A stretch of DNA of 64,000 nt from an uncultured Gammaproteobacteria bacterium. Its GTDB lineage: Bacteria > Patescibacteriota > Patescibacteriia > Patescibacteriales > WJLG01. The stretch is taken from assembly GCA_964395625.1 (NCBI GenBank), contig CAYNAR010000002.1, forward strand, positions 781 to 64,780, read 5' to 3'. Below the pieces are notes generated by a model that saw only the letters and a list, made by a program, of their open reading frames with translations, made no database searches and was not told the origin of the DNA. The position numbers were made by a program, and so were the translations under genes. Positions 3,206-19,150 of the stretch are shown in pieces; position 1 is the first letter of the stretch, and every line of letters starts with the position of its first letter.

Positions 3206-3212
3206 GTATTTT

Positions 3213-4007: not shown

Positions 4008-4016
4008 ATATAAAAT

Positions 4017-4763: not shown

Positions 4764-4798
4764 ACTGTCGTTTAAAGACTCGAATAGACTATATTTTC

Positions 4799-4826
4799 AA
4801 GGGGGTGTTTGACACCTCCTTTTGTT
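4799..4826 (+). terminator. intrinsic terminator
   Basis: GGGGGTGT-TTG-ACACCTCC followed by TTTTGTT. The loop and 3' arm also contain a TTGACA that, with TAGATT at 4832-4837, could serve the next gene. Confidence 0.55.
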
Positions 4827-4856
4827 AAGGCTAGATTGTATAGTTAAAAGTAACTT

Positions 4857-6011
4857 ATGAAGAAGGCGATATTTTTTTCGATAATAATTTTTTTCTGTAT
4901 ATCCTTGCCTAGGCCTATTTTGGCGGCCTTCGAGGACAATGCCTCCAGCGTTTTGGCCGGACGCATTTTAAAGGGCGGTTCTTTTTTGTCCGAATTTTGG
5001 TATGTCGACCCCACCGATTTTCATCGCTACGATATCGGCCTAGGGAAAGTCGAATATTCCAAGATGAAAGAACTCGCTGTCGTTCTAAAGGGTGTTAAGC
5101 TGGGGGGCGCTTCTTTGGGGGATGAAAAAATGCTTAACGGAAGGTTTGTTGTCGACGATTCGAAAAAACTTTATTACGTGAGTCGCTCCGGCGATTTCTT
5201 TTGGGATATGAGCGATGAAACTAATAATCCATTTCTCATGGAAGTGCTGGCGACTTCGACTTGTCTTTTGGCCGATATCCCGACCGCTAAAATAGTTTTC
5301 AATGAAAAAGGCGAAGAAGTCGGAAGGAAATGGCAATATCTTGGCTGGTGGGGTAAGGGCAACGCTAAGTATATTCCGGCGATGTCGGAGCCGAGTGTTA
5401 AAAGTAAGCGAGTCGGAGCTTATTCTGTAAAAAATCGGTTAAAGATTTTGATAGCTAAAAAAATAGACGGCAAAGATTGGTATCAGGTGGATGGCGGTAT
5501 GCACAAGGGCGCTTGGGTGGAAGCGAAATTCGTCGATCCGATCCCGCAACCGGTTCCTGAAAAAAGGCCGGCTTTATTACGGAGGCCGGTGAAGGATGAT
5601 GAGTATTGGGTCGATGTCGATATGACTAGATATGTCCTGACTATGTTCAAAGGACAAGATCCGGTTTTCGCTACCTATGTCTCGATCGGCATGGACGACA
5701 GTCCGACTTTGCCCGGCTCTTATAGTGTCACTCATAAATATAAGAAGACCAGAATGCATGGCGCCCCGCCGACGGCTACCCATTATTACGACCTTGAAGA
5801 CGTTCCTTGGACGATGTATTATTTCGATTCTTACGCCCTGCATGGCGCTTATTGGCAGGACGAGTTCGGCGGGAAGAGGAGTTCCGGCTGTACTAATTTG
5901 ACTATCGGCGACGCTAAATTCATTTTTGATTCGCTCGGCCCGAAAGGGGACGCTGAAAAAATACGTTACTCTAAGACCAATTTAGGGTCGATGGTCTATA
6001 ATCACTATTGA
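4857..6011 (+). CDS. secreted L,D-transpeptidase (YkuD domain) with an SH3-like segment
   Basis: N-terminal signal peptide. The C-terminal HGAYWQDEFGGKRSSGCTNL matches the YkuD His...SxGCxN catalytic motif. Confidence 0.8.
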   Translation: MKKAIFFSIIIFFCISLPRPILAAFEDNASSVLAGRILKGGSFLSEFWYVDPTDFHRYDIGLGKVEYSKMKELAVVLKGVKLGGASLGDEKMLNGRFVVDDSKKLYYVSRSGDFFWDMSDETNNPFLMEVLATSTCLLADIPTAKIVFNEKGEEVGRKWQYLGWWGKGNAKYIPAMSEPSVKSKRVGAYSVKNRLKILIAKKIDGKDWYQVDGGMHKGAWVEAKFVDPIPQPVPEKRPALLRRPVKDDEYWVDVDMTRYVLTMFKGQDPVFATYVSIGMDDSPTLPGSYSVTHKYKKTRMHGAPPTATHYYDLEDVPWTMYYFDSYALHGAYWQDEFGGKRSSGCTNLTIGDAKFIFDSLGPKGDAEKIRYSKTNLGSMVYNHY

Positions 6012-6038
6012 CATTTTTCTTAAAATGTTATATTATTG

Positions 6039-6080
6039 GAGCTAATATTTGGAATAATCTAATATTAGCTCTTTTAAAAT
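6039..6080 (+). terminator. intrinsic terminator of the L,D-transpeptidase gene
   Basis: Perfect 11-bp arms GAGCTAATATT (6039-6049) and AATATTAGCTC (6061-6071), followed by TTTTAAAATTT. Confidence 0.55.
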
Positions 6081-6172
6081 TTATTGGAAGGAGAGAATTT
6101 TTTTATTTTATCGCTTCACTTGTTTTTATAATGGATATTTCGCAATGTTTACCAGTTTTTAAGGAGTTTAAG

Positions 6173-7018
6173 ATGGGATCAGAGAAAAAAAGTGAATTCG
6201 TAAAAGCCATCGTCAAACATGATGGTTACACAAGGATATTCGATGATATTCAAGTGGATAAAGAAGCTCAGAGTAACGAACAGCGTGTTATAGTCGGAAA
6301 AAGTCCGTTCTTGGGAAAATTGTTGATTATCGATGACGAGATTCAATTCACAGAATCTTGTTATAAGATTTATCATGAATTATTCTGCTACCCGGCAATG
6401 ATTTTAAGACGTAGTGATAATATCGCTATTTACGGTGGTGGCGATGGCCTTTTGGCATCGGAAATCGTCAAACTCGGTTGCAGGCCAACTATGGTGGAAC
6501 TCGATCCGCAGGTTGTGAAGATGTGCGGTGAATATTTTCCAGACCTTAATTCTTTGGGTTTCGATAAAGAGAAAGGTGCGAAAATAGTCTATGAAAATGT
6601 GTTGTTGCACAAACCGCAGAAACTTTACGATGTCATTTTTGTAGATTTGACCGATCATGTGGCTTGTCCGTTCCTTTATGATGACAGCGCCCTGGATAAA
6701 TATAAAAAAGATTTAGCCCCTGGTGGCTTAATAGTCTTTTATGCCGAACCGAAAATAGGCGCTGATGGCTTTTATAATAAGCTTCGTCGGCATTTCAAAT
6801 ATAATGTCCTCTATGGGGCTTATATGCATTTTGTCGGTTCATTCTTCACGTTCGGGATATTTTCCGATCGACAAATAAGCGTAAAGAAGATTAAACAAAC
6901 CAGCTGGGTCGGGGATTATTTTTCAGGAACTCTCTTCCATGAGATAGATGATCGCTTTTTGTCTTTTTATAAGACGAATGCTGTCGAAGAATTCGACATC
7001 GAAGACGAAGAAGATTGA
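6173..7018 (+). CDS. spermidine synthase-like (polyamine aminopropyltransferase fold) protein
   Basis: IYGGGDGLLASEIVKLG, VELDPQVVKMCGEYFP and YDVIFVDLTD match SpeE-type motifs. The start was moved from track 6008 to ATG 6173, which has an AAGGAG SD. Confidence 0.7.
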   Translation: MGSEKKSEFVKAIVKHDGYTRIFDDIQVDKEAQSNEQRVIVGKSPFLGKLLIIDDEIQFTESCYKIYHELFCYPAMILRRSDNIAIYGGGDGLLASEIVKLGCRPTMVELDPQVVKMCGEYFPDLNSLGFDKEKGAKIVYENVLLHKPQKLYDVIFVDLTDHVACPFLYDDSALDKYKKDLAPGGLIVFYAEPKIGADGFYNKLRRHFKYNVLYGAYMHFVGSFFTFGIFSDRQISVKKIKQTSWVGDYFSGTLFHEIDDRFLSFYKTNAVEEFDIEDEED

Positions 7019-7026
7019 TTCGCTAT

Positions 7027-7056
7027 AGCGGGGTATTAAAACACCCTGCTTTTTTA
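7027..7056 (+). terminator. intrinsic terminator
   Basis: AGCGGGGT pairs with ACCCTGCT, followed by TTTTT. Confidence 0.55.
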
Positions 7057-7105
7057 TTGGCGCCATTATCTTATTTTATGTTATAATTTTAGTTCACGAT
7101 AACAT

Positions 7106-9667
7106 ATGAAAAAAGGAGAAAATAAAAAAGAAGTCCCGGCCGAAAATTTATCGGCTTGGGCAATTTTGTCTTCAGAGGCTGTCTTGAAAAAAGCCAAGGT
7201 GGATAGCGATGGAATTAAGGATGTCGAAGCTCATCGTCGCTTGAGGCAGTATGGGTATAATATTTCCGAGAAAGAGGAAAAGCTTGGCGTCGTAAAGGAG
7301 TTGCTCTCTAAATTCAAAAGTCCATTGATAATCCTTTTGATTTTCGCCGCTGTTGTAGAAGCTTATTTCGGCGAGTTGGTGAACGCCTGGATAATCACCG
7401 TCATGGTCTTTTTGTCCGCCGTTTTGGATTTTGTCGAGGAGCATAACGCCGGTAAGGCGGCGAAGAAGCTTCTTGAGCAGGTCAGATCAACGGCCGTCGT
7501 GCGTCGCGGAGGAAAGGAGAAAGAGATAGATTCCTCTTCTGTAACCATCGGAGATATTCTAATCCTCAACTCCGGCGACCTCGTGCCGGCTGACGCTAGA
7601 ATAATCAAAGCCAATGACTTCTTTGTTAATCAATCTTCTTTAACCGGCGAATCGCAACATTGCGAGAAGACATCAGAAAAGATCTCTTCTGGCGAGAAAT
7701 CTTTACCAGAATATATCAATTTCGTCTTTTCCGGAACTAACGTAGTCTCCGGCTCGGCTGAAGCCGTCGTCGTCAGGACAGGTAGCAACACCGAATTTGG
7801 TAAGATCGCCAAGACTCTTATTAGACCGGCGGCTAAGTCGGAGTTCGAGATGGGTATAACCGGTTTCGGCATATTAGTCATGAAGGTAATGTTCGTCTTG
7901 GTGTTGTTTATTTTTTTGTTTAATTCTGTTGTGGAGCGTAAGGTTTTAGAGTCGTTTTTGTTCGCCGTTGCGATAGCCGTCGGTGTGACGCCGGAGCTTT
8001 TGCCGATGATTATGTCGATCACTATGGCGAGAGGAGCTATTAGTATGTCTAAGAAGGGGGCTATCGTTAAAAAGTTGTCGGCGATACCGAATTTTGGCGG
8101 ATTGGATATACTTTGCACCGATAAGACAGGGACGCTTACAGAAGGTAAAATCGCCTTAGTGAGTAATGTCGATCTTTTTGGCAATACTTCGGACGAGGTT
8201 TTGAAACTAGCCTATTTCAATAGTTATTTCCAGACCGGTATCGAGAATCCTTTGGATGAGGCTGTTCTTAATTATCGGGATATCTGCGTGGAGCAGGCTA
8301 AGAAGATAGATGAGATACCTTTCGATTTCACTCGTAAGCGTCTAAGTGTCATAGTCGAGACTTGCGGTGAGAAATTATTGGTGGTTAAAGGCGCTCCTGA
8401 GGAGATTTTTAGCTGTTCTACATCTTATTGCTCAAAAGGGGAGATAATCCAATTCGATGACGAAACGAGACAGCGCGCTTGGCGCGTCTATCGAGATCTT
8501 TCCAGCGATGGTTTTAGAGTCTTGGCCCTAGCTACCAAGAAAATAGATGCCAACAAGAACGTCTTCGCCAAGGAAGATGAAAGTGATCTAGCCATTTGCG
8601 GTTTCATAGGATTCTTGGATCCGCCGAAGCAGGGCGTTAAGGAGGCTATACAAAGCTTGGAGGACTCTGGTATCGAGGTTAAGATAATAACCGGAGATAA
8701 CGAATTGGTAGCTCAAAAGATATGCGCCGGAATAGAACTTCCCGTGAAAGGAATTCTTTTGGGTGGAGACATGGATCGTCTGTCTGATGAGGCTTTAAAT
8801 AGAAGAGTGGAGACGACCACTATTTTTGCCAGATTTTCTCCCGAACAGAAGAATCGTATTATCCTAGCTTTAAAAGCCAACCATCACGTGGTTGGTTATA
8901 TGGGTGACGGCATCAATGATGCGCCTTCTCTTAAGACCGCCGATGTAGGAATTTCCGTCAATAACGCCGTCGATGTCGCCAAAGAGTCGGCCGATATAAT
9001 ATTGACCAAAAAGAATTTGGGGATTTTGGTCGATGGTGTGGTCGAGGGGCGCAAGGTTTTCGCCAATACGATGAAATACATCCAGATGGGTTTGTCGTCT
9101 AATTTCGGAAACATGTTCTCCGCTGCCGGTGCCGTCGTATTTTTGCCTTTTTTTCCGATGCTTCCTTTACAGATACTTTTGAATAATTTCATTTATGATT
9201 TGTCGCAGGTAACGATTCCGATAGATAATGTTGATAAGGAAATGACACAAGGGCCGAGACGTTGGAATATGAAGTTCGTCAAGAATTACATGATAACATT
9301 CGGGTTGATTAGTTCGCTATTCGATTTCTTGACTTTTTTCGTCTTGTTTTCGGTGTTTAAATTGCAAGAGAGTGCTTTTCAGACAGGATGGTTTTTGGAG
9401 TCGTTGGCTACGCAGATATTGGTCATTCATATTATACGCACGAGAAAAATACCGTTCATCGAAAGTCGTCCGCATATCCTTTTATTGCTTAGCACCGTTA
9501 CGATGTTGATATTCAGTTGGATGATACCTTATACTCCGATAGCCGCGTTCTTTGGTCTGCAACCTTTGCCACCGCTCGTCCTTTTGGCGATTTCCGGAAT
9601 AGTCGTGATGTATTTGATGGTTGTAGAGATAGGCAAGCGTTGTTTCTATAGGTTCAATAAGATTTAG
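7106..9667 (+). CDS. mgtA: magnesium-translocating P-type ATPase
   Basis: 853 aa. DKTGTLT, TGDN, MGDGINDAPSLKTADVGISV and a C-terminal LLNNFIYDLSQ typical of MgtA-type pumps. Confidence 0.9.
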   Translation: MKKGENKKEVPAENLSAWAILSSEAVLKKAKVDSDGIKDVEAHRRLRQYGYNISEKEEKLGVVKELLSKFKSPLIILLIFAAVVEAYFGELVNAWIITVMVFLSAVLDFVEEHNAGKAAKKLLEQVRSTAVVRRGGKEKEIDSSSVTIGDILILNSGDLVPADARIIKANDFFVNQSSLTGESQHCEKTSEKISSGEKSLPEYINFVFSGTNVVSGSAEAVVVRTGSNTEFGKIAKTLIRPAAKSEFEMGITGFGILVMKVMFVLVLFIFLFNSVVERKVLESFLFAVAIAVGVTPELLPMIMSITMARGAISMSKKGAIVKKLSAIPNFGGLDILCTDKTGTLTEGKIALVSNVDLFGNTSDEVLKLAYFNSYFQTGIENPLDEAVLNYRDICVEQAKKIDEIPFDFTRKRLSVIVETCGEKLLVVKGAPEEIFSCSTSYCSKGEIIQFDDETRQRAWRVYRDLSSDGFRVLALATKKIDANKNVFAKEDESDLAICGFIGFLDPPKQGVKEAIQSLEDSGIEVKIITGDNELVAQKICAGIELPVKGILLGGDMDRLSDEALNRRVETTTIFARFSPEQKNRIILALKANHHVVGYMGDGINDAPSLKTADVGISVNNAVDVAKESADIILTKKNLGILVDGVVEGRKVFANTMKYIQMGLSSNFGNMFSAAGAVVFLPFFPMLPLQILLNNFIYDLSQVTIPIDNVDKEMTQGPRRWNMKFVKNYMITFGLISSLFDFLTFFVLFSVFKLQESAFQTGWFLESLATQILVIHIIRTRKIPFIESRPHILLLLSTVTMLIFSWMIPYTPIAAFFGLQPLPPLVLLAISGIVVMYLMVVEIGKRCFYRFNKI

Positions 9668-9677
9668 AAATAAAATA

Positions 9678-9699
9678 CCCGGCCTTTTAAAAGACCGGG
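9678..9699. terminator. bidirectional terminator hairpin between convergent genes
   Basis: Near-palindrome CCCGGCCTTTT/AAAAGACCGGG flanked by an A-run (9668-9677) and a T-run (9702-9708). Confidence 0.6.
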
Positions 9700-9706
9700 C
9701 GTTTTT

Positions 9707-10087
9707 TTATTTTTCAATAATTTCATCACGATATACTTCTATCACTTTGGAAGCTGAGCATGAATAGCCGTTTCCTTCGGCTTCTTTTCTCCAGCTGAAG
9801 TAAAGTTCTGGGAGGCTATTTTTTTCTTCGTTCTTTTCATGGCGAAGAAAGTATCTTTTGTTTTCTTTGCAGTAACACCCTTCGGTTATATGGAATTCTC
9901 CTGTTAATTCGTATTTTTTGAAGACATAGGCGATTAATCCATCTTCTCCGATATCTGATAAAAGCGAATTAGCCGGTGCTGTTATAAGCATATAGCCGTC
10001 AGCAGTTTTGGCGAAAAATATTACTTTTTCGTCTTTATCGCAGGTTACTTTTGGAATTTCGTCGCCCTTTTTTTCGATTACTACCAT
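9707..10087 (-). CDS. hypothetical protein (orphan)
   Basis: Track ORF trimmed to ATG 10087 (MVVIEKKGDEIPKV...), which is preceded by AGGAGGA. This is the only credible minus-strand gene in the window. Confidence 0.5.
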   Translation of the reverse strand: MVVIEKKGDEIPKVTCDKDEKVIFFAKTADGYMLITAPANSLLSDIGEDGLIAYVFKKYELTGEFHITEGCYCKENKRYFLRHEKNEEKNSLPELYFSWRKEAEGNGYSCSASKVIEVYRDEIIEK

Positions 10088-10316
10088 TTTTCCTCCTGAG
10101 CTCGTGTGGTTAAAGAACATTTTTATTGTTGATATTATAATATTTAAAATTAAAAAAGTCAAGATTAGCTTAAAAATGCGTTTTTCCTCTTGCTTTTTGA
10201 GTGACTTGGGAGTATTATTAACAATTCAAGGGGTATTATCATTTTTGATACCTTTTTGTTTTATATAAAACATTGCCATTGTCAACTTTCGCTTGTCAAT
10301 CGGCAAAATAATACCT

Positions 10317-12524
10317 ATGTCCGATAACATTTTAAAGAAAATCGTCAATCCGTCTGGACGCGGTCGCTTGTGGCAGGTCGTCGTCTTGGTGATCGTTTTG
10401 GCGTCGGCCGCTTTCTTGATCGATGGCGGTAGCTATTACAATCGCGGAGTCGATTGGCTTTCCGCTAAGACCAACGGCTTCGCTCAATTGCCGAAGGCTA
10501 GTGAGAAGAATTTTCGTCTCGGTTTGGATTTACAGGGTGGAACGCATCTGGTCTATAAGGCCGATACGTCACAGGTTCCTGCCGGAGGTGAGGCTGATGC
10601 AGCCGAGGGTGTTCGCGACGTCATAGAAAAGAGAGTTAATGCTTATGGCGTGGCCGAACCTTTGGTTCAGGTCAATAAAGCCGGAGCCGATGACTATCGT
10701 GTAATCGTCGAATTGGCTGGCGTGAAAGATGTCGACGAGGCCATTAAAATGATCGGTGAGACTCCGATTTTGGAATTTAAGGAGCAAGTTTTCGGTCGTG
10801 AATTGACTGACGACGAACAAACTAAGATAAACGATGCCAATATCGCAGCCGAGAAGAAGGCCGAGGAGGTCCTTGGCAAGGTTCTGTCTCGTGGTGATTT
10901 CAATAAGTTAGCTAAAGAATATAACGAGAAAGGCACCTCTACCGCCGATGGTGTTTGGGTGGACTTGGAGAGCGATCCTGAATTGGCCGCCGCCTTGGCA
11001 AAGGTCAAGATTAACGGTGCCACTGATGTTGTCGAGACGGACGATGCTTATGTCGTTGCTAAATTGTTAGAAAAGAAGGTCGCTAAGAATTCTTTGACTG
11101 GTGAGGAGAAGAAACAGATTAAAGCTAGCCACATTTTGATTTGCTATCAGGGCGCGGAGTCTTGCAATAGCAGTACCACCAAGGAAGAGGCTTATGGCAA
11201 GATAAAGGAACTTAAGGAAAAAGCCACTAAAGATAATTTCGCCAAACTAGCTAGAGAGAATTCCACTGAACCAGGTGCCGATCAAACCGGCGGAGCTCTT
11301 GGTTGGTTCAGCAAGGGGATGATGGTTAAGCCTTTTGAGGATGCCGTCTTCTCTCAAAAGACAGGAACCGTCTCCTATGTCGTAGAGACAAAATTCGGCT
11401 ATCATTTGATACTCAAGGAGGATGAGAGAATTTTGGACAATTATCGCGTCCAAGAGATAGCCATCGCTAAGGTTAAGAAAGAAGAGTTTACTGGCACGGA
11501 CGAGAATTGGGTTGCCACTAAGTTGACCGGAAAATATCTCAAGCGTTCCAGTGTCGAGTACAGTGGACAGACCATGATGCCGGAAGTCGCTTTGGAATTC
11601 GATAGCGAGGGGGCTAAATTGTTCGAAGAGCTGACTGGAAGGAATATCGGCAAGCCTATTGCTATATTTTTGGACGGAGATGTCATTAGCGCTCCGACCG
11701 TTAATCAGAAGATTACTGGCGGCAGTGCTGTCATCTCTGGAAAGTTCAACATCATCGAGGCTAGGGATCTTTCTCGCCGTTTGAACTCCGGTGCTTTGCC
11801 TGTGCCGATAACATTGGTCAGTCAGCAGACCGTCGGCGCTTCGTTAGGTAAAGTTTCGATTAACCAGTCTTTGCAGGCGGCTTTGTGGGGTATTTTGTTG
11901 GTCGCCGCTTTCATGATAATTTTCTATAGATTGCCAGGCGTAGCGTCTGTCATCGCTTTATCCGTCTATAGTTTGATTCTTTTGGCTTTCTTCAAGTGTT
12001 GGGGTGTCGCCGTGGCTGCAGCTATAATCGCCATTATAGCCTATACAAAGCCTAAGGGGCCAGCTCTCGGTATTTCATTGGTCGCTTTATTAGCTTGGAT
12101 TGTGTTGATGATGAGTAACTCCTTCTTCTGGAGTTGGCCGATCACTTTGACTTTGCCGGGTATCGCCGGTTTGATTTTATCCGTCGGTATGGCCGTCGAT
12201 GCCAATATATTGATTTTTGAGCGCTATAAGGAGGAGATGCGAGCCGGTCGCGATAACGACAAAGCTATTGATATCGGATTCAAGCGCGCATGGCCTTCGA
12301 TTTTCGATGGTCATATGTCGACCGTATTGACTTGCGTCATTTTGTATTCCTTCTCCACAGGAATGGTCAAAGGTTTTGCCGTTTCCTTGCTTTTGGGTGT
12401 CTTGGCTTCGCTTTTTACCGCCGTTACGGTCACTAGAATAGTGTTGGAGGTGTTTCCGGAAAAATTATTCAATAATTCTTTCTTGGCCGGAGTAAAAAAA
12501 GGCGGAGAGCATAAAAAATCCTAA
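10317..12524 (+). CDS. secD: protein translocase subunit SecD carrying an inserted tandem parvulin-type PPIase module
   Basis: LGLDLQGGTHLVY, ...GALPVPI..., and LPGIAGLILSVGMAVDANILIFER are SecD hallmarks. An internal ASHILI...GGALGWFSKGMMVKPFEDAVF...KFGYHLILK is a canonical parvulin. The start was moved to ATG 10317. Confidence 0.9.
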   Translation: MSDNILKKIVNPSGRGRLWQVVVLVIVLASAAFLIDGGSYYNRGVDWLSAKTNGFAQLPKASEKNFRLGLDLQGGTHLVYKADTSQVPAGGEADAAEGVRDVIEKRVNAYGVAEPLVQVNKAGADDYRVIVELAGVKDVDEAIKMIGETPILEFKEQVFGRELTDDEQTKINDANIAAEKKAEEVLGKVLSRGDFNKLAKEYNEKGTSTADGVWVDLESDPELAAALAKVKINGATDVVETDDAYVVAKLLEKKVAKNSLTGEEKKQIKASHILICYQGAESCNSSTTKEEAYGKIKELKEKATKDNFAKLARENSTEPGADQTGGALGWFSKGMMVKPFEDAVFSQKTGTVSYVVETKFGYHLILKEDERILDNYRVQEIAIAKVKKEEFTGTDENWVATKLTGKYLKRSSVEYSGQTMMPEVALEFDSEGAKLFEELTGRNIGKPIAIFLDGDVISAPTVNQKITGGSAVISGKFNIIEARDLSRRLNSGALPVPITLVSQQTVGASLGKVSINQSLQAALWGILLVAAFMIIFYRLPGVASVIALSVYSLILLAFFKCWGVAVAAAIIAIIAYTKPKGPALGISLVALLAWIVLMMSNSFFWSWPITLTLPGIAGLILSVGMAVDANILIFERYKEEMRAGRDNDKAIDIGFKRAWPSIFDGHMSTVLTCVILYSFSTGMVKGFAVSLLLGVLASLFTAVTVTRIVLEVFPEKLFNNSFLAGVKKGGEHKKS

Positions 12525-12538
12525 TTATTTATAAAAAT

Positions 12539-13411
12539 ATGCTCAAAATAGTTCAAAAGAAAAAAATATGGTTCGCGGTGGCCGCTATTTTGGTTGTCAC
12601 TTCACTCTTTGCTCTGTTCTCTTGGAAATTGAAGTTCGGTCTCGACTTCACCGGAGGTAGTTTGTTGGAGTTGAATTTTGCCGGAGATCGTCCCCCTGTC
12701 GCCGAGATGCAGGACAAAATGGCTGATTTGAATCTTGGTAATTTAGTGGCTCAGCCCATTGGAGACAATGGTGTAATATTGAGATTCCAGAACACCGATG
12801 CCGATATTCATGACAAAATTTTAGCTAAATTCTCAACTTCTACCGAAGAATTAAGATTCGATTCCGTTGGTCCTTCCATCGGTAACGAATTGAAGAAGAA
12901 GACTTTTTCAGCCTTGTTTATAGCCATTATCGGTATTTTGATGTACATAGCTTGGGCTTTCCGCAAGGTGTCTCGTCCTGTGGAGTCTTGGAAATACGGT
13001 TTGGCTTCTATTATTTCTTTGGCTTTCAACGTTTTGGTCGTGCTTGGCGCTTTCGCTTTCCTCGGCAAGTTTAAGGGTGTCGAGATAAATACGCCGTTTA
13101 TAGCCGCTTTATTGACGATTCTCGGTTATACCATCAACGATACTATCGTCGTATTCGATCGCGTCCGTGAGAATTTGCCTAAGAGCGAAGAGGATTTTCA
13201 AGGTACTATCAACACCAGTTTGAATCAGGCTTTGGTTAGATCGTTGAACACCTCCATCACTACCGCTTTGGTATTGGTTTCAGTATTGATATTCGGCGGT
13301 GCGACTATACGCGATTTCGTATTGGCGATGTTAATAGGTGTCGTCGTGGGAACTTGGAGTTCTATCTGTTTAGCCTCACCGGTGCTCATATTGTTCGAAA
13401 AGAAGAAGTAA
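12539..13411 (+). CDS. secF: protein translocase subunit SecF
   Basis: 290 aa. GLDFTGGS, INDTIVVFDRVREN. Follows secD. Confidence 0.9.
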   Translation: MLKIVQKKKIWFAVAAILVVTSLFALFSWKLKFGLDFTGGSLLELNFAGDRPPVAEMQDKMADLNLGNLVAQPIGDNGVILRFQNTDADIHDKILAKFSTSTEELRFDSVGPSIGNELKKKTFSALFIAIIGILMYIAWAFRKVSRPVESWKYGLASIISLAFNVLVVLGAFAFLGKFKGVEINTPFIAALLTILGYTINDTIVVFDRVRENLPKSEEDFQGTINTSLNQALVRSLNTSITTALVLVSVLIFGGATIRDFVLAMLIGVVVGTWSSICLASPVLILFEKKK

Positions 13412-13431
13412 TTAGACGTCTTATATTAAGC

Positions 13432-13467
13432 AAAAATCCGCCACGAAAAAGGCGGGTTTTTGTTTTT
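13432..13467 (+). terminator. intrinsic terminator after secF
   Basis: CCGCC-ACGAAAAA-GGCGG followed by GTTTTTGTTTTT. Confidence 0.6.
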
Positions 13468-13494
13468 GACAAGGACCCTTTTTTGCGGTAATAT
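13466..13494 (+). promoter_or_regulatory. promoter TTGACA-17-TAATAT for mreB
   Basis: The -10 hexamer ends 8 nt before ATG 13503, and there is no SD. Confidence 0.55.
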
Positions 13495-13502
13495 TTATTA
13501 TT

Positions 13503-14546
13503 ATGTTAAATAGGATATTAGGAAAATTCAGTAAGGATTTGGCGGTGGATTTGGGTACTAAAAATACCTTAGTTTTCACTAAAGATAAGGGTATAATCAT
13601 AAACGAACCCTCAGTCGTGGCCGTCAATACTCGCACCGACGAGATCTTGGCCGTTGGCGACGATGCCAAGAAGATGGTCGGCAAGACACCGGCTCATATC
13701 AAGGCAATTAAACCGCTTAACGAAGGCGTTATTTCCGATTTCGAGGTGACCGAGAAGATGCTTAAATATTTCGTCGACAAAATACACAGCGAGAGCTTTA
13801 ATATAGTTCCGCGTCCACGCATGATTATCGGTATACCGATCGAGATAACCGAGGTGGAGAAGAAAGCCGTAGAGGATGCGGCCAAATCAGCCGGAGCTCG
13901 CGAGGTCTTTTTGATCGAAGAGGCGATGGTTGCCGCTATCGGCGCTCGTTTACCCGTTACGGAGGCTGTGGCCAATATGATCGTCGATGTCGGCGGCGGA
14001 ACTACGGAGATAGCCGTGATATCTTTGGGTGGCGTCGTGACTTATAAGTCGCTTCCCGTAGCCGGCAATTCTTTGGATAACGATATCATCGATTATATAC
14101 GCGAGGATTTTAATCTTCTGATAGGCGAGCAGGTCGCCGAAAGCATAAAGACGAAGATAGGTTCGGCTATGGCCGGCAAGGAGTCCATGGAGATGGAGGT
14201 ACGCGGTCGCGACCTTCTGAATGGTTTGCCGAAGGCCGTTATCGTCGACGATGGTCAGATTCGCGAGGCTATCAGTAAATCGCTTAGCAAAATAATCGAG
14301 AATATAAAAATAACCCTCGAAACTACGCCGCCCGAGTTAGTGGCCGATATCTACGAGAACGGCATCAGGCTTTCCGGAGGCGGGGCTTTGCTTAGAGGTT
14401 TCGACAAACAGATATCGCAGGCGACGAAGATTCCCGTCCATTTGGCCGATGATCCTTTGACTTGCGTAGTTCGCGGTTTAGGTGTTTTACTCTCGGATAG
14501 CGAGCTTTTGAAGAGAGTTTTGGCTCCTAACAGTGAGCAGTTATGA
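13503..14546 (+). CDS. mreB: rod shape-determining protein MreB
   Basis: 347 aa. DLGTKNTLV, NEPSVVA, DVGGGTTEIAVISLGG. The stop codon is TGA. Confidence 0.95.
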   Translation: MLNRILGKFSKDLAVDLGTKNTLVFTKDKGIIINEPSVVAVNTRTDEILAVGDDAKKMVGKTPAHIKAIKPLNEGVISDFEVTEKMLKYFVDKIHSESFNIVPRPRMIIGIPIEITEVEKKAVEDAAKSAGAREVFLIEEAMVAAIGARLPVTEAVANMIVDVGGGTTEIAVISLGGVVTYKSLPVAGNSLDNDIIDYIREDFNLLIGEQVAESIKTKIGSAMAGKESMEMEVRGRDLLNGLPKAVIVDDGQIREAISKSLSKIIENIKITLETTPPELVADIYENGIRLSGGGALLRGFDKQISQATKIPVHLADDPLTCVVRGLGVLLSDSELLKRVLAPNSEQL

Positions 14547-14550
14547 TTAA

Positions 14551-15360
14551 ATGAAAAAAATAAATTTAAAATTGTTTTTTTTCTTCGCGGCAACCGTCGG
14601 GTTGCTTGTTTTTTTGCATAATAGCGGGATAATCTCTCCACTCGAGAAAGGGTTGCAGTCATTGCTGAACCCCGTCGCCTCGCGTCTGCATTTTTTCTCC
14701 GGCAAGATAAATATCTTCTACCATGATCAGACGAGAAAAGGTGATTTATCGTCCAGAATAGGTGAATTGGAGGAGGAAGTGGAGAGGCTCGTCGTTCAAA
14801 ACGCTTCGCTCGAGAAGATGGAGGAGGAGAATATAAAACTGCGTCAGTATTTGAATTTTTTTAATGATAATGATGATGTAAAGAGATTGATGGCTAATGT
14901 CGTGGCGCGCGATTTCCTTTCTTCCGACAGCGGTAAGCAGGATTTCATCATCGATCGCGGTAGTGGAGATGGAATTTATCCTGGTTTGGCGGTCGTCGAT
15001 GAAAAAGGAGCGATGGTTGGCAAGGTGTCGTCGGTCGAGGAAAAATCCGCCCGCATCTCCCTTTTGACTAGTGACGATTGTAAGGTCGCCATAACTATCC
15101 TGAATGGTAATAGGACTATAGGCTCGACTGCCGGTAATCTCGGCTTGACCATGAACGTCGAATTTGTCCCTCAATCGGCCGAATTGGAAAAAGGCAATAT
15201 ACTCGTAACTTCCGGTTTGGAGTCGAATATCCCGGCGGGATTGGCGGTTGGTCGTGTCATTTACGTGGACAAGGGCACTAACGAGATATGGCAAAAAGTT
15301 GGAGCCGAGCCGGTAGTGGATTTCGATAAGATTTTTATGGTCGCGGTCATCATGCCTTAA
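14551..15360 (+). CDS. mreC: rod shape-determining protein MreC
   Basis: N-terminal TM segment, a coiled coil, then a beta-rich domain (GDGIYPGLAVVDEKGAMVGKV). Located after mreB. Confidence 0.85.
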   Translation: MKKINLKLFFFFAATVGLLVFLHNSGIISPLEKGLQSLLNPVASRLHFFSGKINIFYHDQTRKGDLSSRIGELEEEVERLVVQNASLEKMEEENIKLRQYLNFFNDNDDVKRLMANVVARDFLSSDSGKQDFIIDRGSGDGIYPGLAVVDEKGAMVGKVSSVEEKSARISLLTSDDCKVAITILNGNRTIGSTAGNLGLTMNVEFVPQSAELEKGNILVTSGLESNIPAGLAVGRVIYVDKGTNEIWQKVGAEPVVDFDKIFMVAVIMP

Positions 15361-15362
15361 TT

Positions 15363-15899
15363 ATGTTCGGTAAGATATTGTTAAAGACGATAATTTTTTC
15401 TATATTGGCCATCGTTCAGATGTCCGTGGTCTTTTATCTTCCTTCTTATTTTTCCAAAATAAATATCCTGCTTGTTTTTCTAGTTTTTTTCTTGGAGGTC
15501 GATAGCAGTATGAAGACTATCTGGTGGTTCTTGGTCGTTGGATTCATCTTTGATTTATATAATTCTCCCATCTTCGGTTTCTGGTTGCTTTTTTGGCCGT
15601 TGATATTTCTCTTCTGCCGATTTTTCTATGTCAATATTTTGACCGATAAATCCTTGTATTCTTTTTTGGGCCTATCTTCGCTAACCTCCATCTTCTACTC
15701 TTTGCTTTTTGCGATTATGTCCTATATGGCAAGCGTCTTCGGTGGCGAAGAGGCGAAGTTGATTTTTGCATCTTTGTCGTTTTGGAGGGATCTGCTTTTG
15801 GGGGTAGTCCTTAATTCGTTGGCCGTTTTTTTCCTTTTCCATCTTACTAATCAGGCTACCAACAGATTGCGTCCGGTATTTATTTTTAGAAAAAGATGA
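15363..15899 (+). CDS. mreD: rod shape-determining protein MreD (by position and multi-TM character)
   Basis: 178-aa polytopic membrane protein between mreC and mrdA. Its end overlaps the next start (ATGA). Confidence 0.6.
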   Translation: MFGKILLKTIIFSILAIVQMSVVFYLPSYFSKINILLVFLVFFLEVDSSMKTIWWFLVVGFIFDLYNSPIFGFWLLFWPLIFLFCRFFYVNILTDKSLYSFLGLSSLTSIFYSLLFAIMSYMASVFGGEEAKLIFASLSFWRDLLLGVVLNSLAVFFLFHLTNQATNRLRPVFIFRKR

Positions 15900-17893
15900 A
15901 CAAACGTTTTCAAAACAAAGAGATGTCTTCCGATCCTTTCGTCATACAGCAAGGGAAGTTCGGCTCTGGAGGACACTTGGAAAAATACTCCCATCTACGC
16001 GAGTGGATAGAGAGCTCTTTTACGCCTCGCGGTTACGAGGGGGAGGTTATTGGTAAGACTTTTGATGCGCGAAGGGTTAGAGCGATAGTCGCTGTCCTTT
16101 TTTTATTTTTAGCCGGCCTCATAAGCAGAACTTTCTATTTACAGATATATAAAGGGGACTATTATTCTTCTAAGGCTGAGGTTAATAGTGTGCGTTATGA
16201 AAGGGTCGCTTCTCAAAGAGGAATCATCTATGATCGTGATCAGAAGCCTTTGGTTCGCAATGTCGCCAATTTTTTACTCTACGTCGTGCCGGCAAACTTA
16301 CCAAAGGACGAAGAGCAGACGAAGCTTCTGGTGACTTCGGCCATTGGGATGGCCTTCTATGGCGATGCCACATCCACCTTGGATTTTTCTTCCTCTTCCT
16401 TGAAAAAGATAGCTAAGGTCGGGAAGAAGACCTTGGAGGCTTATCAGCCGCTCCTTTTGGCCGAAAATATTCCCTATGAAAATGCCTTGAAATTCGATTT
16501 GGAGAGCTTTAGATTTCCAGGCTTCTTTGTTTCGCATAAGGGGAGGAGGGAATATCTCATTGATGGGGCCGTCTCGATGTCACACCTATTGGGTTATACC
16601 GGCAAGGTTAGTGAAGCCGATTTGGAGAAGAACAGTGATGATTATAAGATGGACGATTATATCGGCAAGACTGGCCTGGAGAGTTATTGGGAGAAAGAGT
16701 TGAAAGGGGTGGATGGTTATAAAAAGTACGAGGTCGACGCTTTAGGTAATAGAAAGAAGATAATATCCGACTCTCCGGCCGAGGATGGCCATAATCTTCT
16801 ATTATCGATAGACTTGGACCTGCAAAGAAAGAGCGAGGAGATATTGTCCGATAATTTGCAGAAGATGAAATTGAAGAAGGGTTCGGTCATAGTCATGGAT
16901 CCGAAAAGCGGTGAGCTTTTGGCTATGGTCAGTTTGCCTTCCTACGACAATCGTCTATTCGCCAAAGGAATAGATAGTTCCATATATCAATCCTTGTTAA
17001 GCGACGACAGCCAACCATTGTTTAATCGTTCTATTTCCGGAGAATATCCTTCCGGGTCGACGGTCAAGATGGTCGTAGCGTCGGCGGCTTTGCAGGAGAA
17101 AGTGGTCACGGAAAAGACCACTTTCTATTCCACTGGCGGTCTGCGAGTCAGTCAGTGGTTCTTTCCCGATTGGAAGGCTGGCGGTCACGGTTGGACCGAC
17201 GTACGTAAGGCGATCGCGGATTCGGTGAACACCTTTTTCTATTATGTCGGCGGAGGATTCGAGAATTTCCCCGGTCTTGGCATAGATAGGTTGGTGAAAT
17301 ATTTCAAATTGTTCAATCTCGGAGAGAAGACCGGTGTCGATTTGCCTAGCGAGGCCGATGGTTTCGTGCCGAGTAAGGAATGGAAAGAGAAGGTCGTCAA
17401 AGAAAAGTGGTATATCGGCGACACTTATCATCTCTCTATCGGTCAGGGTGATTTGCTCGTCACTCCTTTGCAGGTCGCGCAATGGACGGCTTTTTTCGCC
17501 AATCGCGGACAAATCGTTCGCCCGCATTTGGCTAAGTATATTTTGAATAAGGACAATCAATTGCTTTCCGCCATCGACAATAAACCAATTAAAGAAGGTA
17601 TTATAGACGACTACAATATCGAAGTGGTTAGACAGGGTATGAGGAAGACGGTGACGACCGGTTCGGCTAAGCGCATGCAGGATTTGCCGGTGGAGGCGGC
17701 GGCTAAGACCGGTACGGCGCAATGGAACACCAAGAAGGATCCGCACGCTTGGTTTACTTCTTTCGCTCCTTATAAGAATCCGGAAATAGTCGTGACGGTT
17801 TTGGTCGAGGAGGGCAAGGAAGGCAGTCAGGTGGCCTTGACCGTGGCGCACGATGTGATGAAATATTATTTCGAAAATAATGATAAACGATAA
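15896..17893 (+). CDS. mrdA: penicillin-binding protein 2 (elongation transpeptidase)
   Basis: 665 aa. The motifs SGSTVK, SIGQG (SxN-like region) and KTGTA define a class B PBP. Confidence 0.9.
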   Translation: MNKRFQNKEMSSDPFVIQQGKFGSGGHLEKYSHLREWIESSFTPRGYEGEVIGKTFDARRVRAIVAVLFLFLAGLISRTFYLQIYKGDYYSSKAEVNSVRYERVASQRGIIYDRDQKPLVRNVANFLLYVVPANLPKDEEQTKLLVTSAIGMAFYGDATSTLDFSSSSLKKIAKVGKKTLEAYQPLLLAENIPYENALKFDLESFRFPGFFVSHKGRREYLIDGAVSMSHLLGYTGKVSEADLEKNSDDYKMDDYIGKTGLESYWEKELKGVDGYKKYEVDALGNRKKIISDSPAEDGHNLLLSIDLDLQRKSEEILSDNLQKMKLKKGSVIVMDPKSGELLAMVSLPSYDNRLFAKGIDSSIYQSLLSDDSQPLFNRSISGEYPSGSTVKMVVASAALQEKVVTEKTTFYSTGGLRVSQWFFPDWKAGGHGWTDVRKAIADSVNTFFYYVGGGFENFPGLGIDRLVKYFKLFNLGEKTGVDLPSEADGFVPSKEWKEKVVKEKWYIGDTYHLSIGQGDLLVTPLQVAQWTAFFANRGQIVRPHLAKYILNKDNQLLSAIDNKPIKEGIIDDYNIEVVRQGMRKTVTTGSAKRMQDLPVEAAAKTGTAQWNTKKDPHAWFTSFAPYKNPEIVVTVLVEEGKEGSQVALTVAHDVMKYYFENNDKR

Positions 17894-17935
17894 AATACGA
17901 GATTTTTTATCGCAAAAATATTATAGTTCCTTCGA

Positions 17936-17964
17936 TTGACAATGGTTCAGTGAGATCCTATTAT
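17936..17964 (+). promoter_or_regulatory. promoter TTGACA-17-TATTAT
   Basis: Consensus-like hexamers about 55 nt upstream of ATG 18020. Confidence 0.5.
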
Positions 17965-18019
17965 ATGTAAAGCGTTAAAAGATGGTGGTTTTTTAGGGGG
18001 TTTTGAAAAGGAGTACTAG

Positions 18020-18415
18020 ATGAAGATGATAAGTTTCAATTGCCGTTGTCAGCTAGGATTGAGTGGTGTGCTCTGTTATGACGAATTAAAACGCGTGAAT
18101 AGGGGTAGTGTCTTTATTGGGGGTAAGTCTTTCGGTTTTATTTCGTCGGACGAGACCTATGTCATAGAGAAAGGTCTTGACATGGGTGGCGTAAGATCAT
18201 TCGCCTTGCTAGTGGAAAGGTCGCGGGACTTTAAAGACGCCGTCTCCGTATTGATCTCTTATTCAAGTAAAGAGGAGTCTGCGGACGTGACAGATGAAAG
18301 CGCTTTTTCTAGTGGTCAATACTTGCAAAGACAAGTGATGATCATAATGAGGGATAGTGATGCGACCATGTTTTTAGCCTATGTTCTGCAGGCTAGTATA
18401 AAAAACTTGCAGTAG
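18020..18415 (+). CDS. hypothetical protein (orphan)
   Basis: 131-aa track ORF with an AAAGGAG SD, its own promoter and its own terminator. No recognisable motif. Confidence 0.45.
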   Translation: MKMISFNCRCQLGLSGVLCYDELKRVNRGSVFIGGKSFGFISSDETYVIEKGLDMGGVRSFALLVERSRDFKDAVSVLISYSSKEESADVTDESAFSSGQYLQRQVMIIMRDSDATMFLAYVLQASIKNLQ

Positions 18416-18433
18416 TGTATCGTTCTTTTTAAT

Positions 18434-18468
18434 ACCCCCTAAGTTCTCGACTTACGGGGTCTTATTTT
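18434..18468 (+). terminator. intrinsic terminator
   Basis: CCCCCTAAG pairs with CTTACGGGG (one mismatch), followed by TCTTATTTTT. Confidence 0.5.
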
Positions 18469-18548
18469 TGACAAAAAAGTTAATATTGTTTATAAAGATT
18501 CGATATGTTTTTATGAGTTTTTTGTTGTTTTTTTGGAAGGAGAGCGCG

Positions 18549-19109: not shown

Positions 19110-19150
19110 GACAAAAAGGCCAAAAAACGCTAAGATTGATGTATAAAATT

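What the first reader, a model, noticed from the sequence alone, without database searches (positions are those of the whole stretch)
10800..11510. SecD carries a tandem parvulin-type PPIase module inserted in its periplasmic head domain
About 237 extra residues sit between the canonical SecD segments GETPILEFKEQ and ATKLTGKYLKRSSVEY...IAIFLDGDVISAPTV. The second half of the insert (about 11118-11423) is a canonical parvulin: ASHILICY..., NFAKLARENSTEPGADQTGGALGWFSKGMMVKPFEDAVFSQKTGTVSYVVETKFGYHLILKED. It aligns motif for motif with PpiC/PrsA/SurA rotamase domains. The first half (GDFNKLAKEYNEKGTSTADGVWVDLESDPELAAALAKVKINGATDVVETDDAYVVAKLLEK) looks like a degenerate, probably inactive, parvulin repeat. 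This fuses a PrsA/SurA-like foldase directly to the mobile P1 head that is thought to pull substrates out of SecYEG. That would couple translocation and folding in an organism with few chaperones.
Basis: partly seen in the sequence, partly recalled or inferred. Interest (0 to 1): 0.6.

Follow-up and report, generated by a model that had tools for sequence, protein, structure and literature searches.

The report
SecD translocase with built-in parvulin foldase
The protein-export motor subunit SecD of this candidate-phyla-radiation bacterium carries a prolyl-isomerase folding module (one apparently active, one degenerate) in its outward-facing domain, a conserved natural fusion that joins in one chain two partners known to cooperate as separate proteins in E. 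coli.

Summary
The ORF at 10293..12524 (probable start 10317; 735 aa) is a full SecD, followed by a separate secF. It has about 220 extra residues (aa 166-404, window 10788..11504) in the loop between the P1-base strand ILEFKEQ and the first P1-head strand.

- **Active domain:** aa 274-380 is a canonical parvulin (Pfam Rotamase_3, E 2e-35). Both catalytic histidines are invariant in 94 homologs.
- **Degenerate domain:** aa 173-263 is a degenerate parvulin. It passes Pfam thresholds and hhalign gives 96% against domain 2, but it has no catalytic His and no beta1 strand of its own.
- **Not an artefact:** the identical protein occurs in three independent assemblies. All 120 best homologs, which are from Patescibacteria, share the architecture.
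- **Topology (new here):** a spare beta1-like strand (aa 382-392) follows domain 2. Covariation and motif patterns suggest it completes domain 1, so the arrangement looks nested rather than beads-on-a-string.
- **Related forms:** a second large Patescibacteria class has a single, circularly permuted but catalytically intact parvulin at the same site. A small family of about 280-aa "P1-head + parvulin" proteins also exists.
- **Function (inferred):** a foldase or holdase tethered at the exit of the Sec channel.
- **Literature:** no paper describing the fusion was found.

Verdict: a real, new variant of a known kind.

The parts
10317..12524 (+). secD gene (735 aa from the ATG at 10317; the mechanical ORF starts at the TTG at 10293). 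Residue numbers in this report count from 10293.
10371..10427 (+). TM1 signal-anchor (aa 27-45). It is preceded by basic residues, so everything up to TM2 is extracytoplasmic.
   Evidence: sequence; AF2 helix H22-44
10611..10784 (+). N-terminal part of the P1 base (Pfam SecD_1st, aa 107-164), ending in the strand ILEFKEQ.
10788..11504 (+). The whole insert (aa 166-404), lying between the base strand and the first head strand.
10809..11081 (+). A1: degenerate parvulin body (alpha1' to beta4', aa 173-263). It has no catalytic His (beta4' is AYVVAKL; family consensus GYEIxKL) and no beta1 strand of its own.
   Evidence: Pfam Rotamase, Rotamase_2 and Rotamase_3 all above gathering score on aa 159-268 alone; hhalign against domain 2 gives prob 96%, E 3e-9; residue profile
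11112..11432 (+). B1+A2: canonical parvulin PPIase domain (aa 274-380). His280 (codon 11130-11132) and His371 (codon 11403-11405) are invariant. E326 is the Pin1 C113 equivalent. Cys284 (93 of 94) and Cys291 (90% or more) are conserved in the beta1-alpha1 loop.
11436..11468 (+). B2: spare parvulin beta1-like strand (aa 382-392, YRVQEIAIA; family consensus EYKVSHIFI, with His in 35 of 94). It is inferred to complete domain 1.
11505..11804 (+). P1 head subdomain (aa 405-504; the Pfam SecDF_P1_head hit covers 410-504).
12003..12140 (+). Extra hydrophobic helical hairpin (aa 571-616) between TM3 and TM4. It is a second, independent insertion.
12141..12521 (+). TM4-TM6 core, including the invariant Asp636 (codon 12198-12200). 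Asp636 aligns with the proton-pathway residue Asp340 of T. thermophilus SecDF.
   Evidence: alignment; invariance
12539..13411 (+). secF (290 aa), a separate gene 14 bases downstream.

Best explanation
This is a genuine SecD of a Patescibacteria (CPR) bacterium whose extracytoplasmic P1 domain has acquired a parvulin module at the base-to-head connector.

**Layout.** The module reads A1-B1-A2-B2, where A is a parvulin body (alpha1 to beta4) and B is a parvulin beta1 strand.
- B1+A2 (aa 274-380) fold as a canonical parvulin that is probably an active PPIase.
- A1 (aa 173-263) together with the distal strand B2 (aa 382-392) form a degenerate, circularly permuted parvulin. This domain has lost catalysis. 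It holds the active domain on SecD and may bind unfolded chains, as SurA P1 and the PpiD parvulin do.

**Proposed mechanism (inferred).**
1. A secretory chain leaves SecYEG.
2. The proton-driven SecDF P1 head captures the chain and pulls it out.
3. The tethered parvulin, a few nanometres from the exit, shields the unfolded chain.
4. The parvulin isomerises Xaa-Pro bonds.

Export and folding at the membrane-wall interface would then be coupled in cis.

**Shown versus inferred.** Shown: the architecture, its conservation, the intact catalytic residues and the extracytoplasmic location. Inferred: the catalytic activity, the nested topology and the coupling to head movement.
For: **Architecture and homology**
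- SecD and parvulin domain hits.
- Fold support: AF2 mean pLDDT is 83.9, with about 90 over the insert. Foldseek matches SecDF and SurA, and matches Pin1 and PrsA PPIase domains (2jzv: TM 0.82 over 105 columns, 37% identity).

**Catalytic set**
- H280 and H371 are 94/94, L336 and F348 are invariant, T366 is 88/94, and E326 is 84/94 (with D in 4).
- Domain 2 is as conserved as the SecD core: mean column identity 0.74 against 0.71-0.81. Domain 1 is at 0.56.

**Not an artefact**
- The identical 735-aa protein occurs in 3 independent assemblies.
- All 120 best hits share the architecture.
- The fusion is found in MAGs labelled Parcubacteria, Falkowbacteria, Uhrbacteria, Magasanikbacteria, Peribacteria/Peregrinibacteria and Gracilibacteria.

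**Nested topology**
- Single-parvulin SecDs have the order body then beta1, with both His conserved (92/94 and 91/94) and a variable 8-40 aa linker.
- In tandem forms the B2 His is dispensable, while the B1 His is invariant.
- Positions 254 (beta4') and 388 (B2) are reciprocal best covarying partners: E-H in 33 sequences, T-T in 15, rank 39 of 58311 pairs. The next partners of 388 are the domain-1 equivalents of Pin1 S111 and C113.
- The DSSP strand lengths 252-263/382-392 and 274-283/369-380 match this pairing.

**Functional precedent in trans**
- PpiD photo-crosslinks to the SecD P1 head and cooperates with SecDF (PMC7793623).
- The SurA parvulin domains are predicted to sit on the SecDF P1 head, and SurA binds the holotranslocon (PMC9987972).
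- The Mycoplasma PPIase lipoprotein Mpn444 crosslinks to SecD (bioRxiv 10.1101/2024.09.05.611430).

**Recurrent pairing**
- A family of about 280-aa TM-anchored proteins combines a P1-head domain with the same type of parvulin. The two domains therefore recur as a pair.
Against: - No activity data exist.
- The Pin1 C113 position is Glu rather than the Asp or Cys of characterised active parvulins. Six of 94 homologs have Gly there.
- Model coordinates could not be read, so neither the position of the parvulins relative to the head and the SecYEG exit nor the beta-strand pairing was seen directly. pTM is only 0.52.
- The covariation rests on 94 related sequences and may be partly phylogenetic.
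- Some parvulin domains in Sec-associated chaperones (PpiD, SurA P1) are catalytically dead yet functional, so conservation alone does not prove isomerase activity.
- A closely related Patescibacteria SecD has no insert at all (L037), so the module is not indispensable to SecD function.
Confidence: 0.65

Rival explanations
1. The parvulin units are non-catalytic. They serve only as an enlarged substrate-binding (holdase) surface or spacer on the P1 domain, as the PpiD parvulin and SurA P1 do, and the conserved residues maintain a peptide-binding groove.
For: - Domain 1 has clearly lost both histidines.
- The C113-equivalent in domain 2 is Glu, and Gly in 6 of 94 homologs.
- Known Sec-proximal parvulin chaperones act without PPIase activity. 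PMC7793623 describes PpiD as an ATP-independent chaperone.
Against: In domain 2 the residues equivalent to Pin1's H59, H157, T152, L122, M130 and F134 are invariant or nearly invariant in the tandem class. The two histidines are also at least 90% conserved in the permuted single-domain class. Retention of both histidines through a circular permutation is hard to explain without selection on the active site.
Confidence: 0.22
2. The module has a role unrelated to general secretion. It might dock SecDF to another envelope machine or to peptidoglycan, or mature a specific client such as pilins or surface proteins used in episymbiosis.
For: - The gene sits next to the mreB-mreC-PBP2 cell-wall genes.
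- The small P1-head+parvulin paralogs lie in accessory regions next to Zn-ribbon/TPR/trypsin proteins. This hints at client-specific use.
Against: - There is no specific partner gene conserved next to secD in the loci read.
- The substrate loop is of the non-specific parvulin type (PrsA/Par14-like), without the Pin1 phosphate-binding basic residues (alignment).
- The broad distribution across Patescibacteria classes fits a housekeeping role.
Confidence: 0.1
3. Artefact: two genes (secD and a PPIase gene) were joined by misassembly or a frameshift, or a chimeric contig.
For: - One JGI assembly splits a close homolog into 268-aa and 423-aa pieces on one contig.
- NCBI names some members 'peptidylprolyl isomerase' and others 'SecD'.
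Against: - The parvulins are internal, flanked on both sides by SecD P1 segments in one frame.
- The identical protein occurs in three independent assemblies.
- At least 240 clusters at 90% identity have an uninterrupted ORF.
- Composition is even across the region.
Confidence: 0.01

Closest known systems
Canonical SecD/SecDF (T. thermophilus SecDF, PDB 3AQP/5YHF; D. radiodurans 5XAN)
   Same: It shares TM1, the P1 base and head, the GG motif, the TM4 Asp (D636, equivalent to Tth D340) and a separate SecF partner. It passes the TIGR01129 cut-off.
   Different: It has about 220 extra residues (two parvulin units plus a spare beta1 strand) in the base-to-head connector. It also has an extra two-helix hairpin between TM3 and TM4.
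SurA (E. coli; PDB 1M5Y)
   Same: SurA has two consecutive parvulin domains, the first inactive and the second active. The NCBIfam SurA model aligns aa 185-415 to SurA 194-422 in one stretch, and Foldseek hits 1m5y. The SurA parvulin domains are predicted to contact the SecDF P1 head (PMC9987972).
   Different: No SurA_N chaperone domain was detected. The score of 53 bits is far below the 394-bit cut-off. The module is covalently part of SecD. The host is presumably a monoderm without outer-membrane protein clients. The topology is probably nested and permuted rather than two complete domains.
PrsA (Firmicutes membrane-anchored foldase; PDB 4WO7, 2JZV, 6VJ6)
   Same: It is a non-phospho-specific parvulin held at the outer face of the cytoplasmic membrane of a wall-bearing cell, and it acts after Sec translocation (own knowledge). 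The best single-domain structural match is the S. aureus PrsA PPIase (TM 0.82).
   Different: It has no lipobox and no NC dimerisation/chaperone domain. The PrsA NCBIfam scores of 57-64 bits are far below the 343-360 bit cut-offs. The anchor is SecD itself.
PpiD-YfgM at the E. coli/Vibrio translocon
   Same: PpiD is a membrane-anchored parvulin-containing chaperone that crosslinks to the SecD P1 head and cooperates with SecDF in late translocation (PMC7793623; PMC9643414).
   Different: PpiD is a separate protein with a catalytically inactive parvulin and large chaperone domains. Here the association is made permanent by fusion, and one parvulin looks active.
Mycoplasma pneumoniae Mpn444/Mpn436
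   Same: These are surface PPIase (parvulin) proteins of a minimal, wall-less bacterium that crosslink to SecD and are proposed to fold chains emerging from SecYEG (bioRxiv 10.1101/2024.09.05.611430).
   Different: They are large trimeric lipoproteins acting in trans and are unrelated in the rest of the sequence.

Membership tests
SecD (protein translocase subunit) | Match to the curated SecD equivalog-domain model above its cut-off | tested here: met
   TIGR01129 scores 356.6 bits against a cut-off of 244.4.
SecD (protein translocase subunit) | N-terminal TM, a large extracytoplasmic P1 domain with base and head, then a TM bundle of RND type | tested here: met
   Pfam Sec_GG, SecD_1st, SecDF_P1_head and SecD_SecF_C all hit. 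The AF2 topology agrees, and Foldseek matches SecDF structures at E about 1e-18.
SecD (protein translocase subunit) | Conserved proton-pathway Asp in TM4 (T. thermophilus D340) | tested here: met
   D636 aligns with Tth D340 and is invariant in alignments A1 and A3.
SecD (protein translocase subunit) | Partner SecF encoded alongside | tested here: met
   secF lies at 12539..13411. TIGR00966 scores 274.5 bits against a cut-off of 160.
Parvulin PPIase (PF00639/PF13616), domain 2 | HMM match above the gathering score | tested here: met
   On aa 269-396 alone, Rotamase_3 scores 104.7 bits (cut-off 22.5) and Rotamase scores 81.7 bits (cut-off 21.7).
Parvulin PPIase (PF00639/PF13616), domain 2 | Catalytic His pair and hydrophobic proline pocket (Pin1 H59, H157, L122, M130, F134, T152, and an acidic residue or Cys at position 113) | tested here: met
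   The equivalents are H280, H371, L336, M344, F348, T366 and E326. Glu at the 113 position is atypical.
Parvulin PPIase (PF00639/PF13616), domain 2 | Measured cis-trans isomerase activity | not testable with these tools
   This needs a biochemical assay.
Parvulin fold, domain 1 | HMM match above the gathering score | tested here: met
   On aa 159-268 alone, Rotamase_2 scores 32.6 bits (cut-off 27), Rotamase 31.9 (cut-off 21.7) and Rotamase_3 28.9 (cut-off 22.5). The hits start at model position 10-29, so beta1 is missing. hhalign against domain 2 gives 96%.
Parvulin fold, domain 1 | Catalytic His pair | tested here: not met
   The beta4' position is V in the window protein and E, T or others in homologs, never His. 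The B2 position is E in the window protein, with His in 35 of 94 homologs.
PrsA | Match to PrsA equivalog models; N- and C-terminal chaperone (NC) domain; lipoprotein signal | tested here: not met
   NF002827 scores 56.8 bits against a cut-off of 343, and NF002846 scores 52.9 against 361. No NC-domain Pfam hit was found. The N-terminus is the SecD TM1.
SurA | Match to the SurA equivalog model; SurA_N chaperone domain | tested here: not met
   NF008038 scores 53.3 bits against a cut-off of 394. No SurA_N, SurA_N_2 or SurA_N_3 hit was found at E up to 0.1.

The most novel reading that the evidence does not exclude
SecD and a parvulin form an obligate 'pull-and-fold' unit in much of the Patescibacteria. 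The proton-driven swing of the P1 head would feed the emerging chain into a PPIase site carried on its own hinge.

The family would also preserve, in living lineages, several stages of a parvulin circular permutation: a single permuted but active domain, a duplicated ABAB form that regenerates a canonical domain nested inside a degenerate permuted one, and a stand-alone P1-head+parvulin spin-off.

It would be the first natural covalent evidence that the P1 head and parvulin chaperones work on the same substrate.
Probability: 0.3. Interest if true: 0.75.

Novelty: new variant of a known kind. Interest (0 to 1): 0.55.

Why it matters
**Support for a debated interaction.** In model bacteria, the link between SecDF and periplasmic parvulin chaperones (PpiD, SurA, and in Mycoplasma Mpn444) rests on crosslinks, low-resolution EM and AlphaFold docking. 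A conserved natural fusion of the two partners at the P1 base-head junction is independent 'Rosetta-stone' support for that interaction.

**An experimental handle.** The fusion offers a single polypeptide in which translocation-coupled folding could be studied structurally.

**Envelope proteostasis in reduced genomes.** It suggests how organisms with very small genomes economise by building a foldase into the translocon accessory motor.

**Fold evolution.** The permuted and nested parvulin forms are a clean natural example of domain permutation by duplication. No paper on a circularly permuted parvulin was found in the library searched.

Tried and rejected
- **RNA genes.** Rfam and tRNA scans of the window found nothing, so there was no RNA marker to name the organism.
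- **Model coordinates.** I tried to read the AF2 coordinates to measure domain contacts and strand pairing. The model files are not exposed in /data. The topology therefore had to be inferred from DSSP, Foldseek alignment lengths, motif patterns and covariation.
- **Whole-genome check.** A genome-wide search for a stand-alone prsA, surA or ppiD was not possible. Only the 64-kb window and flanks of 4-8 kb at related loci could be searched. A domain-2 HMM found no other parvulin in them. The Pfam scans covered 37 of the window's larger ORFs, and none of those matched a PPIase or chaperone family; the rpoB/rpoC and ribosomal-protein stretch (about 32-58 kb) was not scanned.
- **Naming the nearest non-SecD relatives.** Cluster-name look-ups returned almost no names.
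- **Literature.** Searches for SecD+parvulin, SecD+peptidyl-prolyl+Patescibacteria, SecD+PPIase domain+CPR, SecD+rotamase, and 'circularly permuted'+parvulin found no description of the fusion. The one paper holding both SecD and rotamase in a CPR-adjacent context was irrelevant.
- **Alternative pairing.** I considered 'two self-contained permuted domains' (A1·B1 and A2·B2) and rejected it for three reasons. It would split the two invariant histidines between domains. It leaves the 254-388 covariation unexplained. Foldseek aligns a full sequential parvulin of 105-113 columns, which has to include beta1.
- **Artefact.** Rejected; see the rival explanations.
Full report
**1. Observation**

The region lies inside one long ORF, 10293..12524 on the + strand (743 aa from a TTG). 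Identical and homologous proteins in public data are 735 aa and start at the ATG at 10317. I number residues from 10293.

Pfam finds, in order:
- Sec_GG at aa 74-93
- SecD_1st at 107-164
- Rotamase_2 at 184-264
- Rotamase_3/Rotamase at 264-376 (E 2e-35 and 9e-30)
- SecDF_P1_head at 410-504
- SecD_SecF_C at 574-714

The curated SecD model TIGR01129 is passed (356.6 bits against 244.4). The next gene, 12539..13411, is SecF.

Against the crystallised T. thermophilus SecDF, aa 70-168 align with Tth 29-121 and aa 425-558 align with Tth 173-305. A Patescibacteria SecD with no parvulin (locus L037, 531 aa, 49-54% identical) has about 21 residues between ...LEFKEQ and W-x-x-T-E-L-T-G. The window protein has about 240 there.

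**2. It is real and conserved**

- The identical protein is encoded on contigs from three unrelated sequencing runs, each with secF downstream and the same P-type ATPase upstream.
- All 120 best database hits (50-100% identity, 670-746 aa, plus one 652-aa entry) have SecD and Rotamase domains together. The named ones are Patescibacteria or Falkowbacteria. One, P0027, is labelled Candidatus Nanoarchaeia archaeon by its source.
- A scan of species-representative genomes finds the fusion in MAGs labelled Parcubacteria, Falkowbacteria, Uhrbacteria, Magasanikbacteria, Peribacteria/Peregrinibacteria and Gracilibacteria. Several binned MAGs carry a placeholder 'Gammaproteobacteria' label. In Peribacteria the protein is further fused to SecF, giving about 1013 aa.
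- One assembly splits a close homolog into two ORFs. That is the exception.
- GC content is even across the region.

The artefact reading is therefore excluded.

**3. Anatomy of the insert**

*Domain 2 (aa 274-380)* is a complete parvulin.
- BLASTP to human Pin1 gives 36% identity.
- The alignment maps Pin1 H59, C113, L122, M130, F134, T152 and H157 to H280, E326, L336, M344, F348, T366 and H371.
- In 94 homologs, H280, H371, L336 and F348 are invariant. T366 is 88/94, M344 is at least 90%, and E326 is 84/94 with D in 4 and G in 6.
- The AF2 model has mean pLDDT 83.9 and about 90 over the insert. It matches Pin1, Ess1 and S. aureus PrsA PPIase domains over 105-113 columns, with TM up to 0.82.
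- The beta1-alpha1 loop carries two nearly invariant cysteines, C284 and C291. They may form an extracytoplasmic disulfide. This is inference only.
- Domain 2 is as conserved as the SecD core: 0.74 mean column identity against 0.71-0.81.

*Domain 1 (aa 173-263)* is a degenerate parvulin.
- On its own it passes the Pfam gathering scores for Rotamase, Rotamase_2 and Rotamase_3. The hits begin at model position 10-29, so the beta1 strand with the first histidine is missing.
- A profile-profile comparison with domain 2 gives 96% probability and E 3e-9.
- The second histidine is replaced by V in the window protein and by E, T and others in homologs.
- In many relatives domain 1 keeps the GGDLGW motif. 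In the window's clade it has drifted further, to ADGVWVD.

Directly after domain 2 comes a strand at aa 382-392, YRVQEIAIA. Its family consensus, EY-K-V-S-H-I-F-I, is the parvulin beta1 signature, and 35 of 94 sequences have His there.

The linear order is therefore A1-B1-A2-B2, where A is a body and B is a beta1 strand.

**4. Nested rather than beads-on-a-string**

Four observations point to B1 pairing with A2 (a canonical, active domain) and B2 pairing with A1 (a permuted, degenerate domain).

(a) *A second SecD class has a permuted parvulin.* This class is about 540-596 aa, forms at least 120 clusters at 90% identity, and is from Patescibacteria, including Kerfeldbacteria.
- It has only A then B: ...ETxFGYHII..., then a variable 8-40 aa E/T-rich linker, then ...A-S-H-I-L-I.
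- His is 92/94 at the first site and 91/94 at the second.
- This is a circularly permuted yet catalytically intact parvulin.
- Its AF2 model is confident (pLDDT 93-96 over the domain) and shows a strand at the relocated beta1.
- Foldseek, which aligns sequentially, lists no parvulin among its top 50 hits. For the tandem model it lists many.

(b) *His use follows the presence of B1.* Wherever an upstream B1 exists, its His is invariant, while the B2 His is lost in several lineages such as Uhrbacteria, Peribacteria, Gracilibacteria and the window's own clade. Where B1 is absent, B2 keeps the His.

(c) *Covariation.*
- Positions 254 (the His157-equivalent of A1) and 388 (the His59-equivalent of B2) are each other's best partner by APC-corrected mutual information among 342 variable columns. 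Pairs are E-H in 33 sequences and T-T in 15, and the pair ranks 39 of 58311.
- The next partners of 388 include 211 and 213, the domain-1 equivalents of Pin1 S111 and C113.
- The caveat is that the 94 sequences are related, so part of the signal can be phylogenetic.

(d) *Secondary structure.* DSSP strand extents 252-263/382-392 and 274-283/369-380 match that pairing. The single-residue break at 381 is incompatible with a beta4-B2 hairpin in the catalytic register.

I could not read the coordinates, so this remains an inference.

**5. Position in SecD**

The insert is in the first of the two chain segments that cross from the P1 base to the P1 head. The head is the element that binds the emerging polypeptide and swings with proton flow; this is established knowledge, summarised in PMC7793623.

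'Inserted in the head' is therefore approximately right. The more precise statement is that it sits at the hinge-side boundary. Whether it travels with the head is unknown.

TM1 (aa 27-45), preceded by basic residues, places the whole module outside the cytoplasm.

**6. Likely function**

Three independent lines in other bacteria put parvulin chaperones at this spot in trans:
- PpiD photo-crosslinks to SecD P1-head residue 359, and PpiD and SecDF are both required for late translocation of VemP (PMC7793623).
- SurA binds the holotranslocon, and AlphaFold places its two parvulin domains on the SecDF P1 head (PMC9987972).
- The Mycoplasma parvulin lipoprotein Mpn444 crosslinks to SecD (bioRxiv 10.1101/2024.09.05.611430).

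The Patescibacteria proteins make that association covalent. I therefore favour a tethered foldase/holdase that receives chains as SecDF pulls them out. Domain 2 would be the isomerase, and domain 1 a scaffold or binding surface.

The organism has peptidoglycan genes nearby: PBP2, MreBC, an L,D-transpeptidase, FemAB and a Mur ligase. CPR cells are generally regarded as lacking an outer membrane (own knowledge). The functional analogue is therefore PrsA rather than SurA.

Membership in PrsA or SurA is not met. There is no NC or SurA_N domain, and the scores are far below the cut-offs.

**7. An unexpected relative**

The exhaustive representative search with the insert alone returned several proteins of about 280 aa with 50-59% identity to domain 2.
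- They consist of an N-terminal TM anchor, a SecDF_P1_head domain and then a parvulin with the same Cys-containing loop.
- The domain order is opposite to that in SecD, so they are not fragments.
- About ten clusters at 90% identity exist.
- In one MAG the gene lies in an accessory-looking region next to a recombinase, HTH proteins and Zn-ribbon/TPR/trypsin proteins.

This recurrence of 'P1 head + parvulin' without the motor supports the idea that the two domains work together on substrates.

**8. Novelty**

The architecture is visible in public databases, and automated pipelines label it either SecD or peptidylprolyl isomerase. I found no paper describing it, and none describing a circularly permuted parvulin. 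It is a new variant of known kinds (SecD and parvulin foldases), not a new kind of system.

**9. Limits**

- There is no activity data and no coordinates.
- Only the 64-kb window could be searched for other chaperones. A domain-2 HMM over all its reading frames found no other parvulin. Pfam scans of 37 of its larger ORFs found no PPIase or chaperone family, but the rpoB/rpoC and ribosomal-protein stretch was not scanned.
- The direction of evolution between the single and tandem forms is unresolved.

Noticed in passing
window 12003..12140 (SecD aa 571-616): A second insertion in the same protein: a hydrophobic two-helix hairpin (VAVAAAIIAIIAY-TKPKGP-ALGISLVALLAWIVLMMSNSFF) between TM3 and TM4. 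AF2 models it as helices 571-585 and 590-608 with pLDDT around 90. It would give SecD 8 TM helices instead of 6. It is present in 43 of 94 close homologs and absent in 51. It is also found in a parvulin-less Patescibacteria SecD (L037) and in a Peribacteria SecDF (L027), so it is independent of the parvulin insert.
   Followed up: partly
window 19244..22915 (+): A 1223-aa class-I aminoacyl-tRNA synthetase (tRNA-synt_1, Anticodon_1 and DUF5915; IleRS-like) has a histidine-phosphatase-superfamily domain (His_Phos_1, E 7e-28) at aa 530-698, between the two stretches of the synthetase catalytic domain. This is another domain insertion into a housekeeping protein in the same genome.
   Followed up: no
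L034:3644-5290 and L051:3587-5236; proteins P0271-P0390: A large second class of Patescibacteria SecD (about 540-596 aa) has a single parvulin that is circularly permuted (alpha1 to beta4, then a variable 8-40 aa acidic linker, then the beta1 'ASHILI' strand). Both catalytic histidines are at least 90% conserved.
   Followed up: yes
P0148, P0150, P0158, P0168, P0254, P0396-P0401; locus L084:8001-8846: A family of about 280-aa proteins has an N-terminal TM anchor, a SecDF P1-head domain and a C-terminal parvulin closely related (50-59% identity) to domain 2 of the SecD insert. In L084 the gene sits beside a serine recombinase, HTH regulators and Zn-ribbon/TPR/trypsin-domain proteins.
   Followed up: partly
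L026, L027, L028 (Peribacteria MAGs): Here SecD-parvulin and SecF are fused into one protein of about 1013 aa. In L029, L030, L032, L033 and L035 the region before the active parvulin is about 130 aa longer and has no recognisable domain.
   Followed up: partly
window 9707..10162 (-): This is the only sizeable ORF on the minus strand in the neighbourhood (151 aa; called as 137 aa in public assemblies), between the P-type ATPase and secD. It has no Pfam match.
   Followed up: no
window 1..64000: Nearly all long ORFs are on the + strand, and GC skew is positive throughout. The cumulative skew rises monotonically across the window, consistent with one replichore in which genes are co-oriented with replication. 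No tRNA or Rfam family was found in 64 kb.
   Followed up: no
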